A stretch of 64,000 nt of DNA, taken from sequence record OP595145.1; one strand, 5' to 3'. The notes under the pieces are model-generated. The model had not been told where the DNA came from. It saw nothing but the letters and a program-made list of their open reading frames with translations, and did no database searches. The translations under genes and the position numbers were made by a program. Source of the stretch: Escherichia phage vB_EcoM_DE16. Below, one piece after another: positions 24,827-27,315 of this stretch (positions within the stretch are counted from its first letter, which is position 1; each line of letters starts with the position of its first letter).

Positions 24827-24856
24827 TTGACAAACGTATCCTTCATATGTTAGGAT
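24827..24856 (+). promoter_or_regulatory. sigma70-like promoter candidate (ACTATTGACA -35 box)
   Basis: TTGACA at 24827 then 17 nt then TTAGGAT; shares motif with the other promoter candidates listed. Confidence 0.35.
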
Positions 24857-25064: not shown

Positions 25065-25139
25065 TGGCCCTGTAGCTCAATGGGAGAGCTGTCGGCTCAT
25101 AACCGATAGGTAGCTGGATCGAAACCAGCCAGGGCCACC
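25065..25139 (+). tRNA. tRNA, anticodon CAT (Ile2 lysidine-type or Met)
   Basis: manual cloverleaf: acceptor GGCCCTG/CAGGGCC, anticodon loop CTCATAA, T-loop, encoded CCA; resembles bacterial tRNA-Ile2. Confidence 0.7.
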
Positions 25140-25142
25140 AAC

Positions 25143-25217
25143 GTCTTTATGGTGTAATGGATAGCACAGGAGTCTTCTAAACTCTTAGTCAAGGTTCGAT
25201 TCCTTGTAAAGACACCA
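25143..25217 (+). tRNA. tRNA-Arg (anticodon TCT)
   Basis: acceptor GTCTTTA/TAAAGAC, anticodon loop CTTCTAA, T-loop GGTTCGATTCC, encoded CCA. Confidence 0.7.
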
Positions 25218-25413
25218 GAATATTTTAACATGAATTAGCTCAAGTGATTTGAACCCCACTACTGATCATGGTGGCAGAGAATGAGGCAAGTATGTCAGAC
25301 ATTATAAACAAAGGCCACGGTTATATTAGAAGACATAGACGCTCGAAGAGCACCGTTCGTGGAGAACGGGGGTTGGTGGAGTCACCATTCATGGTAAAAT
25401 GTTTTAAAAAACT

Positions 25414-25443
25414 ATTGACAACAAACATTATTTTATGTTAGAT
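25414..25443 (+). promoter_or_regulatory. sigma70-like promoter candidate (ACTATTGACA -35 box)
   Basis: TTGACA then 17 nt then TTAGAT, upstream of tRNA-Ser. Confidence 0.4.
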
Positions 25444-25451
25444 TATAAGTA

Positions 25452-25542
25452 TGGAAGGGCAAATCGACGTGGCGACGAAAACGGTCTTGAAAACCGCCGA
25501 GCTTGAAAGAGCCTTGGGAGTTCGACTCTCCCTCCTTCCGCC
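25452..25542 (+). tRNA. tRNA-Ser (anticodon TGA), class II
   Basis: anticodon loop CTTGAAA, long variable arm, T-arm GGGAGTTCGACTCTCCC, discriminator G, encoded CCA; D-arm fold is irregular. Confidence 0.6.
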
Positions 25543-25547
25543 AGATT

Positions 25548-25633
25548 AGGTAGATTGGTGAAATGGTAGCCACAACAGTTTGCTAAACTGTAGTCGGAAA
25601 CGGCGTGTAGGTTCGAGTCCTACATCTACCGCC
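25548..25633 (+). tRNA. tRNA-Ser (anticodon GCT), class II
   Basis: acceptor GGTAGAT/ATCTACC, anticodon loop TTGCTAA, variable-arm hairpin, discriminator G, CCA. Confidence 0.7.
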
Positions 25634-25763
25634 AAGTTCTTTTTAATATAGCTTACTTTAATAGAGTAAACTTTCGGCAGATGGCCTCCACCATCTTACC
25701 GATACTTCATAGTTAGTGGTGCGAACACTGGCTATTTTAAAAAGAATTTAAATACTAGCATTT

Positions 25764-25851
25764 AGGTGAGTTAATTCCGTAGGGGTAGCGGGGCAGACTG
25801 TAAATCTGTTATCATTGCGATTCGGGTGGTTCGACTCCATCACTCACCACC
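25764..25851 (+). tRNA. tRNA-Tyr (anticodon GTA), class II
   Basis: acceptor GGTGAGT/ACTCACC, anticodon loop CTGTAAA, long variable arm, discriminator A, CCA. Confidence 0.7.
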
Positions 25852-25857
25852 AAATTA

Positions 25858-25943
25858 AGATGAGTTGGCTGAATGGTTTAAGCGGCGGACTGTTAATCCG
25901 TGTTCGAAAGAACGATATAGGTTCAAATCCTATACTCATCGCC
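25858..25943 (+). tRNA. class II tRNA with anticodon GTT (Asn anticodon on a Ser/Tyr-type body); identity unresolved
   Basis: perfect 7-bp acceptor GATGAGT/ACTCATC, 3-bp D stem, anticodon stem GCGGA/TCCGT with loop CTGTTAA, 15-nt variable arm (GTTC-GAAA-GAAC), T-arm ATAGGTTCAAATCCTAT, discriminator G, CCA. Confidence 0.6.
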
Positions 25944-25950
25944 AGAATTA

Positions 25951-26027
25951 TGGACTTGTAGAGTTAAGGTAAACCCCCAGTCGCCAAGAGGCTTCTGGAA
26001 TTGCAGGTATCGAATCCTGCCGAGTCC
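25951..26027 (+). tRNA. tRNA-like element with aberrant D/anticodon arms (possible tRNA pseudogene)
   Basis: 7-bp acceptor GGACTTG/CGAGTCC and T-arm GCAGG-TATCGAAT-CCTGC (8-nt loop) but no 5-bp anticodon stem with 7-nt loop; no encoded CCA. Confidence 0.3.
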
Positions 26028-26033
26028 CAGCTT

Positions 26034-26108
26034 TGCTCCTATAGTATAATGGCTATTACAACGGTTTTGTAATCCGTGGATCTCTGTTCGATTCAGAGTG
26101 GGAGCACC
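26034..26108 (+). tRNA. tRNA-Thr (anticodon TGT)
   Basis: acceptor GCTCCTA/TGGGAGC, anticodon loop TTTGTAA, T-arm CTCTGTTCGATTCAGAG, CCA. Confidence 0.65.
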
Positions 26109-26608
26109 AACATAACAGGTAAGAACATTTAGGCTACTGAGAAATCATCCGAGGCAATCAGACCTATCTTCTGTTAAGTGTTCTTATCGTTGTGAAGAAA
26201 GCAAACTTATTGAATGTAAGCGGACGAAAGACATTCACTAACCTGTAGTAAGGTCGAGCCAAAGCGCGGTAATGAGTTCCGAGGTTAGTATTCACAACAC
26301 AACATTAAGAGCACTGTGATTGATCGTCGTATCCTGTGCACAAGGTCTGCTCGAAAGACAGTGTTCTTAGTATTGTGTTGATCACAAAAAGAGTTACCTG
26401 AAACTTGACCGGAGTAGGGTTGGATGGGGCAAAAGAAGAAGCGGCTCTCCCATCGACAGCAACGAAGAATAATATTTGACTTTGGTTTTGTATTATTTTA
26501 AGTTAGCTTACCGAACGTAGGGCTAGTCACCCAATGGGATACTCGTCACTGTCCCACTCAATAAAACTATTGACAACCAATAGTAAAATGTAGTATAGTA
26601 AAGATGTA
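26109..26608 (+). ncRNA. ORF-free, tRNA-free 0.5 kb spacer inside the tRNA cluster; structured ncRNA candidate
   Basis: no ORF of 60 aa or more on either strand, no T-loop motif; long-range complementary pairs AAGAACA/TGTTCTT and TTGTGAA/TTCACAA. Confidence 0.25.
26569..26598 (+). promoter_or_regulatory. sigma70-like promoter candidate (ACTATTGACA -35 box)
   Basis: TTGACA then 18 nt then TATAGT, upstream of tRNA-Gly. Confidence 0.45.
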
Positions 26609-26609
26609 G

Positions 26610-26683
26610 GGCGTTCTTGGTGTAGCGGTAGCATTCCGTCCTTCCAAGTCGGCGGCACGAGTTCGATCCTCGTAGAACGCTCC
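26610..26683 (+). tRNA. tRNA-Gly (anticodon TCC)
   Basis: acceptor GCGTTCT/AGAACGC, anticodon loop CTTCCAA, T-arm ACGAGTTCGATCCTCGT, CCA. Confidence 0.65.
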
Positions 26684-26781
26684 AAATTATTTAATAAAGG
26701 GTTGCCAGAAAACTTTCTCTTTTACTCATGGTTTTCTCCTTCTCTCACACCTCTTCTGGTTGCCCTTCATTAAATGATTTA

Positions 26782-26857
26782 TTGGTTTGTAGTGTAGTCA
26801 GGTAGCACACGACACTTTGACTGTCGTAGGTTTGGTTCAAATCCAGACAGACCAGCC
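26782..26857 (+). tRNA. tRNA-Gln (anticodon TTG)
   Basis: acceptor TGGTTTG/CAGACCA, anticodon stem-loop CGACA-CTTTGAC-TGTCG, T-loop TTCAAAT, CCA. Confidence 0.65.
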
Positions 26858-26862
26858 ATATA

Positions 26863-26939
26863 ACGGAATTTAGCTCAGTTTGGTAGAGTGTACGCTTTGG
26901 GAGCGTATTGTCGCAGGTTCGAATCCTGCAATTCCGACC
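26863..26939 (+). tRNA. tRNA-Pro (anticodon TGG)
   Basis: acceptor CGGAATT/AATTCCG, anticodon stem-loop TACGC-TTTGGGA-GCGTA, T-arm GCAGGTTCGAATCCTGC, CCA. Confidence 0.7.
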
Positions 26940-26945
26940 AATTAA

Positions 26946-27019
26946 ATGTTTCGTAGTTCAATGGTAGAACCCACGACTGATAATCGTGAGACACAAGTTC
27001 GATTCTTGTCGAAACAACC
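26946..27019 (+). tRNA. tRNA-Ile (anticodon GAT)
   Basis: acceptor TGTTTCG/CGAAACA, anticodon stem-loop CACGA-CTGATAA-TCGTG, T-arm, CCA. Confidence 0.7.
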
Positions 27020-27021
27020 AG

Positions 27022-27093
27022 TTTCCCGTTAGACTTACAGGATAAGAGTTCCACAGCTTATTGTGATGCTGGTTCGAATCCAGCACGGGATAC
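27022..27093 (+). tRNA. tRNA-like element lacking a canonical anticodon arm (pseudo-tRNA or non-canonical tRNA)
   Basis: good acceptor (TTCCCGT/ACGGGAT), D-arm and T-arm GCTGGTTCGAATCCAGC, but only 16 nt between D- and T-arms, forming CACAG/TTGTG stem with 4-6 nt loop; 3' end ACC not CCA. Confidence 0.3.
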
Positions 27094-27097
27094 CTAA

Positions 27098-27176
27098 TAG
27101 CGGGATAGAGGAGTCTGGTCGTCCTCGCCAGTTTCATATGCTGGAGATCATTGGTTCAAATCCAATTCCCGCCTCC
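27098..27176 (+). tRNA. tRNA-Met (anticodon CAT), possibly initiator-like
   Basis: anticodon stem-loop CCAGT-TTCATAT-GCTGG, T-loop TTCAAAT, acceptor AGCGGGA/TCCCGCC with A1:C72 mismatch, CCA. Confidence 0.6.
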
Positions 27177-27291
27177 AAATATCGCTTGCCAGCGGTATCT
27201 TTGAAGACCTTGCCTGGTTCCTTCTAAGATGGAGGGGTGCGACTCCTTAACGCACAATTATAATAAAGCATTTCAAATTAACAGTATTTAT

Positions 27292-27315
27292 TAGCCTCCT
27301 TATTGGAGGCTTTTT
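27292..27315 (+). terminator. rho-independent terminator closing the tRNA cluster
   Basis: AGCCTCC-TTATT-GGAGGCT stem-loop followed by TTTTT. Confidence 0.6.

What the first reader, a model, noticed from the sequence alone, without database searches (positions are those of the whole stretch)
25951..27093. Two tRNA-like elements with intact acceptor and T-arms but defective anticodon arms
At 25951-26027 and 27022-27093 the sequence forms 7-bp acceptor stems and T-arms (one with an 8-nt TATCGAAT loop, one with a perfect GCTGGTTCGAATCCAGC), but neither has a 5-bp anticodon stem with a 7-nt loop. The second has only 16 nt between D- and T-arms. They may be decaying tRNA genes, processing signals for RNase P/Z, or decoy substrates.
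Basis: seen in the sequence. Interest (0 to 1): 0.4.

Follow-up and report, generated by a model that had tools for sequence, protein, structure and literature searches.

The report
Two anticodon-less tRNA-like phage RNAs
Two tRNA-shaped genes without an anticodon loop sit inside the tRNA gene cluster of a phAPEC8-like coliphage; they are conserved, structurally selected RNAs rather than decaying tRNA genes, one being the counterpart of phage T5's "RNA3", whose function is still unknown.

Summary
Element 1 (25952-26028) and element 2 (27023-27092) have acceptor and T arms but a plain hairpin where the anticodon arm should be. ARAGORN and the Rfam tRNA model miss both, and tRNAscan-SE-annotated relatives leave them blank.

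They are not decaying genes. Element 1 is the homologue of "RNA3, tRNA-like RNA with unknown functions", annotated directly after tRNA-Asn in T5-like phages. The family spans five lineages: Phapecoctavirus, Justusliebigvirus, T5-like, a jumbo phage and an unclassified metagenome contig. All share an invariant D-region (UAGAGUUAA..AAACC) and an 8-nt T-loop. Acceptor and T stems covary (95% paired, 9 of 12 pairs changed on both sides). The central hairpin differs in sequence in every lineage. Two copies stand alone between protein genes.

Element 2 belongs to a second, smaller family (Phapecoctavirus, some Vequintavirinae, phiEB49, Enterobacter phage SonariX) with the same pattern: 96% paired, 8 covarying pairs, central loop of 3, 4, 7 or 9 nt.

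Most likely both are transcribed with the tRNAs, cut out by the tRNA-processing enzymes, and act as non-decoding tRNA mimics. The partner and function are unknown. This is a new member of a known but uncharacterised kind.

The parts
25952..26028 (+). Element 1: anticodon-less tRNA-like RNA, homologue of T5-group RNA3 (77 nt including discriminator C26028)
   Evidence: Sequence. MFE fold, z -3.6. Scores 92.7 bits with the family model R1. Homologues.
25952..25958 (+). Element 1 acceptor 5' strand (GGACUUG), pairs with 26021-26027
   Evidence: 7/7 pairs. Across the family, 5 of the 7 acceptor pairs change on both sides.
25959..25975 (+). Element 1 D-region UAGAGUUAAGGUAAACC. Invariant family signature; possible 3-bp mini D-stem GUU/AAC.
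   Evidence: The UAGAGUUAA..AAACC core is identical in all five lineages while the stems around it change.
25977..25998 (+). Element 1 central hairpin replacing the anticodon arm (CCAG-UC-GCC-AAGA-GGC-UU-CUGG)
   Evidence: Folds as a hairpin. Every lineage has a different sequence and length (16-37 nt). Variation within the genus falls in the loop (25988) and the outer pair (25977/25998).
26003..26020 (+). Element 1 T-arm GCAGG-UAUCGAAU-CCUGC with an 8-nt loop
   Evidence: The 8-nt loop YAUCRAWY is kept in all lineages. 4 of the 5 stem pairs change on both sides.
26021..26028 (+). Element 1 acceptor 3' strand CGAGUCC plus discriminator C. No CCA is encoded (AGC follows).
   Evidence: The discriminator is A in the PD06-type copy (L143), and A in T5, muut, L134 and L172.
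27023..27092 (+). Element 2: second anticodon-less tRNA-like RNA (70 nt including discriminator A27092; CC at 27093-27094, then U)
   Evidence: Sequence. Fold z -2.75. Homologues. Covariation.
27030..27050 (+). Element 2 D-arm region UAGACUUACAGGAUAAGAGUU, with GG in the loop. Near-canonical D-arm; the pairing register is ambiguous.
   Evidence: GTTAGRCTTAYAGGATAAGA is conserved in the window, A7_1, UPEC06 and phiEB49. The Rfam alignment of the SonariX copy maps it onto the tRNA D-arm. The canonical register is only 79.5% paired.
27052..27065 (+). Element 2 central hairpin CACAG-CUUA-UUGUG (5 bp, 4-nt loop)
   Evidence: Stem kept through A-U/G.U/G-C changes. Loop is 3-4 nt in Phapecoctavirus, 3 nt on a 7-bp stem in A7_1 and UPEC06, 7 nt in phiEB49, 9 nt in SonariX.
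27068..27084 (+). Element 2 T-arm GCUGG-UUCGAAU-CCAGC (canonical 7-nt loop)
   Evidence: 100% paired across the family; 2 pairs change on both sides.
25859..25944 (+). tRNA-Asn(GUU) with a long variable arm. Upstream neighbour of element 1 (7-nt gap). The Asn + RNA3-like pair is also found in T5-like phages and Justusliebigvirus.
26035..26109 (+). tRNA-Thr(UGU). Downstream neighbour of element 1 (6-nt gap); its RNase P site would define element 1's 3' trailer.
   Evidence: The processing role is inferred.
26947..27020 (+). tRNA-Ile(GAU). Upstream neighbour of element 2 (2-nt gap).
27099..27177 (+). tRNA-Met(CAU). Downstream neighbour of element 2.
26570..26599 (+). Promoter-like site (TTGACA-18-TATAGT, 11 of 12) ahead of the Gly...Ile-element 2-Met block. 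Weaker sites at 24827-24856 and 25415-25444.
   Evidence: Consensus match only; the number of sites is not above chance.
27293..27311 (+). Intrinsic-terminator-like hairpin plus U-run closing the array
   Evidence: Annotated as a rho-independent terminator in ASO2A.

Best explanation
Both elements are genes for small, non-decoding tRNA-like RNAs kept by selection.

Element 1 is the Phapecoctavirus orthologue of the T5-group 'RNA3'. Element 2 belongs to a second, smaller family built to the same plan.

Shown:
- They lie on the tRNA strand inside the array and have no ORF.
- Their acceptor and T helices are maintained by compensatory substitutions across unrelated phages.
- In element 1 the D-region and 8-nt T-loop (the 'elbow' of the L-shape) are sequence-invariant.
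- The arm at the anticodon position is kept only as a hairpin of free sequence and length, so there is no anticodon.

Inferred:
- They are transcribed in the polycistronic tRNA precursor.
- RNase P cuts at their 5' ends, because the 7+5-bp acceptor/T minihelix is intact.
- Their 3' ends come from RNase P cleavage of the next tRNA followed by exonuclease trimming, possibly with CCA completion by the host enzyme. T5 RNA3 encodes ACCA, element 2 encodes ACC, and element 1 encodes none.
- The mature ~70-77-nt RNA acts through its tRNA-like upper half and elbow as a mimic that engages a tRNA-binding factor, not as an adaptor in decoding.

Which factor it engages (a host tRNA-directed defence nuclease or sensor, or a tRNA-processing or modifying enzyme) is unknown.
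For: Not callable as tRNAs.

Element 1 family:
- Homologues lie directly after tRNA-Asn in muut (Justusliebigvirus) and in T5-like phages.
- They are annotated rna3 'tRNA-like RNA with unknown functions' in AJ604531 and 'putative stable RNA' in DT57C.
- Present in 87 Phapecoctavirus, 39 Justusliebigvirus and 354 T5-like records.
- Further lineages are L134, a jumbo phage with UvsX-like flanks, and L172. Both of those copies are solitary between ORFs.
- All lineages give the same MFE architecture.
- Over the 12 acceptor and T pairs, 95.2% of cells are paired, against 71.5% in shuffles (0 of 500 reach the observed value) and 26-45% when partners are slid. 9 of 12 pairs change on both sides.
- Within T5-likes, L081 has two compensatory pairs in the central hairpin and L151 has one in the T-stem.
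- Divergence within the genus is 1.3 per 100 nt, inside the range of the neighbouring tRNAs (0-4.3). The variable sites are the loop, the outer pair of the hairpin and the discriminator.

Element 2 family:
- Homologues in A7_1, A73, W70, UPEC06 and LTH01 (Vequintavirinae), phiEB49 and SonariX.
- 95.7% of cells paired, against 36-44% when slid. 8 pairs change on both sides; 0 of 500 shuffles reach that.
- The central loop is 3, 4, 7 or 9 nt while its stem is kept.

Context: promoter-like sites on the same strand, a terminator, and no credible ORF.
Against: - There is no expression, end-mapping or binding data for any member, and the searchable literature gives no function.
- Only five lineages (element 1) and four (element 2) are available. 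The sequences are related, so the shuffle counts are not probabilities.
- The invariant D-region cannot be tested by covariation.
- Element 2 diverges faster (4.2 per 100 nt) than most neighbouring tRNAs, with indels in its central loop, as expected if part of it is unconstrained.
- Its phiEB49 and SonariX relatives may still be working tRNAs (24.6 and 33.3 bits against a threshold of 29), so the window copy could be a derived, partly degenerate form.
- The discriminator base and acceptor sequence are not conserved, which argues against a conserved aminoacylation identity and leaves the mode of action open.
- According to a paper cited in PMC11464382, T5 mutants with deletions in the tRNA region exist, so the region is at least partly dispensable in the laboratory.
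Confidence: 0.6

Rival explanations
1. Decaying tRNA pseudogenes. Former tRNA genes lost the anticodon loop, and the rest has simply not yet eroded.
For: - Both are clearly tRNA-derived. The Rfam alignment of the SonariX copy maps element 2's D-arm onto the tRNA D-arm.
- phiEB49 has a 7-nt loop and is annotated tRNA-Val.
- Element 2 shows loop indels and the highest divergence among the tRNA-like features.
- Pair 1:72 is mismatched in all Phapecoctavirus copies of element 2.
Against: - No lineage of the element-1 family retains an anticodon loop, yet the design persists in five lineages with an invariant D-region and compensatory stem changes.
- Solitary copies exist.
- Element 1 evolves as slowly as the real tRNAs.
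- Element 2's stems also covary across subfamilies.
Confidence: 0.12
2. Structural punctuation. The RNAs have no function of their own and are kept as RNase P/Z-cleavable spacers, so that the tightly packed neighbouring tRNAs are matured correctly from the polycistronic precursor.
For: - Gaps to the flanking tRNAs are only 2-7 nt.
- Every element-2 homologue abuts the CCA end of an upstream tRNA by 1-3 nt.
- Only the parts RNase P needs (acceptor and T helices) are strictly paired.
- Other spacers in the array are also strongly structured.
Against: - L172 and L134 carry the element with no adjacent tRNA.
- A mere spacer would not need a 17-nt invariant D-region and a conserved non-standard 8-nt T-loop across T5-like, phAPEC8-like and jumbo phages while the acceptor sequence turns over completely.
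Confidence: 0.15
3. DNA-level element. The conserved motif is a target or landing pad for homing endonucleases or recombination that shuffles tRNA cassettes, not an RNA with a function.
For: - Justusliebigvirus arall carries the Phapecoctavirus-type element 1, whereas muut has its own type. This implies cassette exchange.
- T5-like tRNA regions encode HNH homing endonucleases.
Against: Compensatory base changes in three helices indicate selection on RNA pairing. The element is always on the tRNA strand.
Confidence: 0.05
4. They are unconventional but decoding tRNAs, read through an unusual anticodon loop or after editing or splicing.
For: The phiEB49 copy of element 2 has a 7-nt loop UUAACAA and is called tRNA-Val(AAC) by ARAGORN. 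The SonariX copy passes the Rfam threshold.
Against: - The window copies have 4-nt loops on plain hairpins, and A7_1 and UPEC06 have 3-nt loops.
- Loop sequence and length are not conserved even within the genus.
- There is no tRNA hit at E<=10.
- No intron-like insertion could restore a 7-nt loop.
Confidence: 0.03

Closest known systems
RNA3 (gene rna3) of T5-like phages: 'tRNA-like RNA with unknown functions' in GenBank AJ604531 (Salmonella phage 5 tRNA region), 'putative stable RNA' in DT57C KM979354
   Same: Same as element 1 in these respects:
- D-region UAGAGUUAAG(N)UAAACC
- 8-nt T-loop YAUCGAAU
- 'AUU' linker before the T-stem
- a hairpin instead of an anticodon arm
- position directly 3' of the long-arm tRNA-Asn

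   Different: - The acceptor and central-hairpin sequences are entirely different (compensated).
- T5 RNA3 has a U1xU72 mismatch and encodes ACCA. The window copy has G1-C72, discriminator C and no encoded CCA.
- The host phages are unrelated (Demerecviridae siphoviruses versus Stephanstirmvirinae myoviruses).
- Element 2 is not a member: it lacks the motif and scores only 24 bits with R1.
Other non-tRNA RNAs annotated in T5-like tRNA regions (RNA1 and RNA2 'tRNA-like'; RNA I, III, IV, 2H and X 'stable RNA with unknown functions')
   Same: The same phenomenon: tRNA arrays interspersed with tRNA-like or otherwise structured RNAs of unknown role. The window array also has structured, covarying spacers.
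   Different: No sequence match to any part of the window array. RNA1 and RNA2 are much longer (145 and 125 nt).
T4/T2 species I and II RNAs (rnaC, rnaD) at the end of the T-even tRNA cluster
   Same: Small stable RNAs of unknown function, co-located with phage tRNA genes. rnaC ends in a tRNA-like T-arm and acceptor segment. That they are processed with the tRNAs is from general knowledge of T4, not tested here.
   Different: No homology beyond the generic T-loop. They are 116-140 nt with different architecture.
phiEB49 'tRNA-Val(AAC)' and the unannotated SonariX tRNA-like gene
   Same: Homologues of element 2 at 77% and ~73% identity. Same D-arm, T-arm and acceptor core CCCG, and the same position abutting an upstream tRNA.
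   Different: They have 7-nt and 9-nt central loops and score 24.6 and 33.3 bits as tRNA. The window copy has a 4-nt loop and no tRNA score.
tRNA-like domain of tmRNA, and eukaryotic or organellar tRNA-like processing products (mascRNA, plant mitochondrial t-elements)
   Same: An acceptor/T minihelix recognised by tRNA-processing enzymes, without a decoding anticodon arm. This is a works-like analogy from established knowledge; the papers surfaced.
   Different: No tag reading frame or pseudoknots, and ARAGORN finds no tmRNA. No Rfam hit to mascRNA or tmRNA at these positions. Different organisms and no homology.

Membership tests
Canonical tRNA (Rfam RF00005) | Covariance-model score at or above the gathering threshold (29 bits), or a call by a tRNA finder | tested here: not met
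   No RF00005 hit at either element even at E<=10. ARAGORN makes no call. tRNAscan-SE-based annotations of relatives are blank at both positions.
Canonical tRNA (Rfam RF00005) | 5-bp anticodon stem with a 7-nt loop (U33, anticodon, purine 37) | tested here: not met
   Element 1 has a 22-nt interrupted hairpin with loop AAGA. Element 2 has a 5-bp stem with loop CUUA.
Canonical tRNA (Rfam RF00005) | 7-bp acceptor stem stacked on a 5-bp T-stem with a 7-nt T-loop | tested here: inconclusive
   Element 1: 7-bp acceptor and 5-bp T-stem, but an 8-nt loop. Element 2: 6 bp plus U1xU72, with a canonical T-arm.
T5-group RNA3 family (element 1) | D-region motif UAGAGUUAA-N2-3-AAACC following a 7-nt acceptor strand | tested here: met
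   25959-25975 matches. The core is identical in T5-likes, muut, L134 and L172.
T5-group RNA3 family (element 1) | 8-nt T-loop YAUCRAWY on a 5-bp stem, preceded by an AUU linker | tested here: met
   26000-26020 AUU-GCAGG-UAUCGAAU-CCUGC.
T5-group RNA3 family (element 1) | Plain hairpin of free sequence in place of the anticodon arm | tested here: met
T5-group RNA3 family (element 1) | Expressed as a discrete stable small RNA | not testable with these tools
   Only database annotations are available ('tRNA-like RNA', 'putative stable RNA'). No expression data are accessible.
T5-group RNA3 family (element 2) | D-region motif and 8-nt T-loop | tested here: not met
   Element 2 has UAGACUUACAGGAUAAG and a 7-nt loop. 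R1 gives 24 bits, barely above real tRNAs at 20.6 and 17.9.
tRNA pseudogene (unconstrained relic) | Substitution pattern without structural constraint; restricted to one lineage | tested here: not met
   Compensatory changes and multi-lineage conservation for both elements. Element 1's divergence equals that of the tRNAs. The evidence is weaker for element 2, at 4.2 per 100 nt.
tmRNA | tRNA-like domain plus tag-peptide reading frame | tested here: not met
   ARAGORN reports no tmRNA in the window. There is no Rfam tmRNA hit.
T4-type species I/II RNA (rnaC/rnaD) | Sequence homology to rnaC or rnaD | tested here: not met
   blastn of T2L rnaC and rnaD against window 24800-27500 matches only 10-11-nt T-loop words.

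The most novel reading that the evidence does not exclude
RNA3-like RNAs (element 1), and in parallel element 2, are dedicated anti-defence tRNA mimics. They would be anticodon-less and therefore immune to anticodon nucleases. Through their invariant elbow and acceptor/T minihelix they would bind and neutralise, or mis-trigger, host tRNA-targeting immune effectors or sensors (of the PrrC/RloC, PARIS, retron, Septu or OLD type). That would explain why unrelated lytic phages with large tRNA arrays, and even phages without an adjacent array, keep the same RNA.
Probability: 0.12. Interest if true: 0.8.

Novelty: new member of a known kind. Interest (0 to 1): 0.42.

Why it matters
Phage tRNA arrays are now understood largely as counter-measures to host nucleases that cut tRNAs. 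The non-tRNA RNAs embedded in those arrays have been ignored since they were first noted in T5 and T4.

This analysis shows that one of them (RNA3) is not peculiar to T5. It is a structurally selected RNA shared by at least three unrelated phage groups (T5-like phages, the two Stephanstirmvirinae genera, a jumbo phage) plus an unclassified contig, and it sometimes occurs as a stand-alone gene. A second family has the same anticodon-less design.

That gives a concrete, small and experimentally tractable target: two ~75-nt RNAs in an easily grown coliphage. It can be used to ask what tRNA mimics do during infection. It also flags a blind spot in annotation, since neither family is in Rfam or called by tRNA finders.

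Tried and rejected
1. **Hidden canonical cloverleaf or intron.** Rejected: no RF00005 hit at E<=10, no ARAGORN call, and no sequence that could restore a 7-nt loop.
2. **Identifying element 1's ancestral tRNA.** The tRNA(CAU) that follows tRNA-Asn in Proteus phage PM135 looked similar (U1xU72, UAGAAGUU...AAC). It is the orthologue of the T5-group tRNA-fMet (82% identical), and is no closer to RNA3 than other tRNAs are (62-68%). Rejected.
3. **Klebsiella phage KPP-1 and T2L.** tRNA-Asn is followed by ordinary tRNAs (Asp, Arg), with no RNA3-like element.
4. **Homology of the window array to other phage stable RNAs.** None found for the other T5 stable or tRNA-like RNAs, or for T2L rnaC and rnaD.
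5. **IMG/VR motif scan for element 2.** Returned only one Phapecoctavirus, phiEB49 itself and four chance hits.
6. **Metagenome and genome-collection scans with the element-1 motif.** Structural filtering kept only L172 plus a doubtful low-GC cluster.
7. **Whole-array MAFFT alignment and a semi-global aligner for divergence by feature.** Both gave artefacts because of large indels. Replaced by per-feature blastn.
8. **Literature searches for a function.** Nothing found for T5 RNA3 or for anticodon-less phage tRNA-like decoys.
9. **A specific relationship between elements 1 and 2.** They share the UAGA + NUU/AAN' D-arm layout, and T5 RNA3 is 71% identical to element 2. This is not distinguishable from general tRNA similarity. 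Left open.
Full report
**What the window is.** The region 25066-27177 is a dense, single-strand tRNA array. ARAGORN finds 10 tRNAs and Rfam 11. It is 98-99% identical to phAPEC8-like coliphages (Phapecoctavirus, Stephanstirmvirinae). Same-strand promoter-like sites lie at 24827, 25415 and 26570. A strong terminator hairpin at 27293-27311 closes the array. No credible ORF overlaps the two elements.

**Checking the observation.**
- Element 1 (25952-26028) has a 7-bp acceptor stem, a 5-bp T-stem with the 8-nt loop UAUCGAAU, and a 22-nt interrupted hairpin where the anticodon arm should be.
- Element 2 (27023-27092) has a 6-bp acceptor stem with a U1xU72 mismatch, a perfect canonical T-arm, a tRNA-like D-arm containing GG, and a 5-bp hairpin with a 4-nt loop.
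- Fold z-scores are -3.6 and -2.75.
- Neither ARAGORN nor the Rfam tRNA model reports them, even at E<=10.
- Records annotated with tRNAscan-SE, including ones that list pseudo-tRNAs, leave both positions empty.

**Element 1 is the counterpart of T5 RNA3.**
- blastn with element 1 alone finds only copies at >=95% identity, in 87 Phapecoctavirus-type records.
- A search with the Tyr-Asn-element 1-Thr block showed that the sister genus Justusliebigvirus (muut) and T5-like Demerecviridae carry a diverged element directly 3' of the same long-arm tRNA-Asn.
- In GenBank AJ604531 (Salmonella phage 5) this element is annotated as gene rna3, 'RNA3, tRNA-like RNA with unknown functions'. In DT57C it is a 'putative stable RNA'.
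- It is present in 354 T5-like and 39 Justusliebigvirus records.
- Motif scans plus structural filtering added two further lineages.
  - L134 comes from a 262-kb contig whose flank encodes a UvsX/RecA-like protein distantly matching ~260-kb Erwinia and Dickeya jumbo phages.
  - L172 has no GenBank phage relative.
  - In both, the element sits alone between protein-coding genes, with no adjacent tRNA.

**Anatomy and selection in the element-1 family.**
- Every lineage folds on its own into acceptor stem, central hairpin and T-arm with an 8-nt loop.
- In the 19-sequence alignment, the D-region UAGAGUUAA..AAACC, the AUU linker and the T-loop core are invariant or nearly so. The acceptor sequence is almost completely replaced from lineage to lineage.
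- Over the 12 acceptor and T pairs, 95.2% of cells are standard pairs. Shuffles give 71.5% (0 of 500 reach the observed value) and slid partners give 26-45%. 9 of 12 pairs change on both sides.
- The central arm cannot be aligned between lineages (16 to 37 nt, unrelated sequences), yet it is always a hairpin.
- Within T5-likes it shows two compensatory pairs (L081: GGUAGC/GCUAUC to AGCAGC/GCUGUU). The T-stem shows one more (L151).
- Within Phapecoctavirus the only variable sites are a loop base (25988), the outer hairpin pair (25977/25998), a C-run length and the discriminator.
- Element 1's divergence (1.3 differences per 100 nt) lies within the range of the adjacent real tRNAs (0-4.3). Spacers range from 0.8 to 12.6.
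- A covariance model of the family finds no second copy in the window.

**Element 2 belongs to a second family.**
- Its homologues are found in Phapecoctavirus (about 70 records) and in a small Vequintavirinae group (A7_1, A73, W70, UPEC06, LTH01; ~80% identity; not called as tRNA).
- They also include Drexlerviridae phage phiEB49 (annotated tRNA-Val(AAC), but only 24.6 bits against a threshold of 29) and Enterobacter phage SonariX (unannotated, 33.3 bits; ARAGORN silent).
- The D-arm, T-arm and acceptor core CCCG are conserved.
- The central arm is 5 bp with a 3-4-nt loop (Phapecoctavirus), 7 bp with a 3-nt loop (A7_1, UPEC06), 5 bp plus a bulge with a 7-nt loop (phiEB49), or 5 bp with a 9-nt loop (SonariX).
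- Over 21 pairs, 95.7% of cells pair, against 36-44% when slid. 8 pairs change on both sides, and 0 of 500 shuffles reach that.
- The canonical D-stem register is weak (79.5% paired). The alternative inner hairpin never varies and is therefore uninformative.
- Element 2 is more variable within the genus (4.2 per 100 nt, including loop indels).
- Every known copy abuts the CCA end of an upstream tRNA by 1-3 nt.
- The case for independent function is therefore weaker than for element 1.

**How it most likely works.**
- Shown: both are non-coding, tRNA-derived, structurally selected RNAs without an anticodon. In element 1 the elbow (D-region plus T-loop) is under sequence constraint, whereas the acceptor and central arms are under pairing constraint only.
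- Inferred from established tRNA-processing biology:
  - They are transcribed within the polycistronic precursor.
  - The intact acceptor/T minihelix makes them RNase P substrates.
  - Cleavage at the next tRNA plus exonuclease trimming sets the 3' end.
  - CCA is encoded in T5 RNA3 (ACCA), partly encoded in element 2 (ACC) and absent in element 1, so it would need the host CCA-adding enzyme.
- Because the discriminator and acceptor sequence are not conserved, a conserved aminoacylation identity is unlikely.
- My best reading is a non-decoding tRNA mimic recognised through its shape and elbow by a tRNA-binding factor. I put 0.6 on 'conserved functional tRNA-like RNA' and much less on any particular partner.

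**Rivals.**
- Pseudogene: contradicted by the multi-lineage covariation and the solitary copies. Most plausible for element 2.
- Processing punctuation: fits the tight packing, but not the solitary copies or the invariant elbow.
- DNA-level cassette or homing target: cassette exchange between genera is seen in arall, but compensatory changes point to selection on the RNA.
- Unconventional decoding tRNA: excluded for the window copies by their 3-4-nt loops.

**Comparison with what is known, and novelty.**
- Element 1 meets every testable defining feature of the T5 RNA3 family. It extends that family to Stephanstirmvirinae, a jumbo phage and an unclassified contig.
- The family is in no Rfam model, and I found no function in the literature.
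- Element 2 is an unannotated family of the same general kind.
- Neither is related to the other T5 stable RNAs or to T-even species I/II RNAs.
- I rate this a new member of a known but uncharacterised kind, of moderate interest. It is not surprising in kind, but it is a clean, tractable entry point into what tRNA mimics in phage tRNA arrays do, at a time when these arrays are being reinterpreted as counter-defence loci.

**Limits.**
- No expression data are available.
- Few independent lineages are available.
- E-values from my model are rough.
- Shuffle controls overstate significance for related sequences; the slid-partner control is the more robust one.

Noticed in passing
window 25635-25764: The Ser-Tyr spacer folds into a multi-branch structure closed by an 11-bp stem, with a T-arm-like hairpin AGUG-GUGCGAA-CACU (z -4.0). 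Between Phapecoctavirus relatives its central hairpin shows two double compensatory changes (AGAUGG/CCAUCU to AAGUGG/CCACUU). It is probably a further, larger tRNA-like or structured RNA, comparable in kind to T5 RNA1 and RNA2.
   Followed up: partly
window 26685-26782: The Gly-Gln spacer is one of the most conserved stretches of the array (0.8 differences per 100 nt). It forms a ~24-bp long-range helix (z -5.7, 0 of 200 shuffles fold as well). It may be a processing site (for example of RNase III type) or another RNA element.
   Followed up: partly
window 26110-26610: A 500-nt stretch with no tRNA and no convincing ORF. 26110-26295 is absent from most Phapecoctavirus relatives but present in phiWec188 and probably SF1-1 (SF1-1 inferred from its 100% coverage of the array query). 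A strong promoter-like site sits at 26570-26599.
   Followed up: no
window 27178-27262: The tail between the last tRNA and the terminator folds into four short hairpins (z -2.2) and contains a T-loop-like GGGGUGCGACUCC. It could be another degenerate tRNA-like remnant.
   Followed up: no
window 25859-25944: tRNA-Asn(GUU) carries a long variable arm (86 nt), which is unusual for Asn. The same long-arm Asn is found in T5-like phages, muut and PM135, and it precedes the RNA3-like element in T5-like phages and the two Stephanstirmvirinae genera; in PM135 it is followed by tRNA-fMet instead.
   Followed up: partly
window 25765-25849 and 25453-25539: Two real but atypical tRNAs are missed by one or both finders. 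tRNA-Tyr(GUA) is missed by ARAGORN, scores 39 bits in Rfam, and is flagged 'Pseudo-GTA' in MT496970. 25453-25539 gets only a sub-threshold tRNA-Sec hit, but is annotated tRNA-Ser(UGA) by tRNAscan-SE in ASO2A.
   Followed up: no
L400 1408-1484 (Escherichia phage arall, Justusliebigvirus): arall carries the Phapecoctavirus-type element 1 (87.7 bits), whereas other Justusliebigvirus such as muut have their own diverged type. This implies cassette exchange between genera within the tRNA array.
   Followed up: partly
L156, L186, L189-L191, L193, L205, L226 (metagenome contigs, 29-36% GC): A cluster of low-GC contigs shares TAGAGTTAAACAAAACC followed ~45 nt later by a T-arm-like GGATCGAATCC. There is no consistent acceptor stem and no tRNAs nearby. 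The RNA3 model scores them 14-28 bits. This may be a distant relative or an unrelated conserved element.
   Followed up: partly
L402 801-877 (Proteus phage PM135) and L014 4649-4726: The T5-group initiator tRNA-fMet has a U1xU72 mismatch instead of the bacterial C1xA72. T5 RNA3 and the Phapecoctavirus element 2 share a U1xU72 mismatch and A73.
   Followed up: partly
L012 3451-3528 (phage muut, between tRNA-Phe and tRNA-Leu): By eye, the 78-nt spacer at the position corresponding to element 2 is not homologous to it but can form a closing stem ACACCA/UGGUGU with internal hairpins. I did not fold it. It may be another structured non-tRNA spacer.
   Followed up: no
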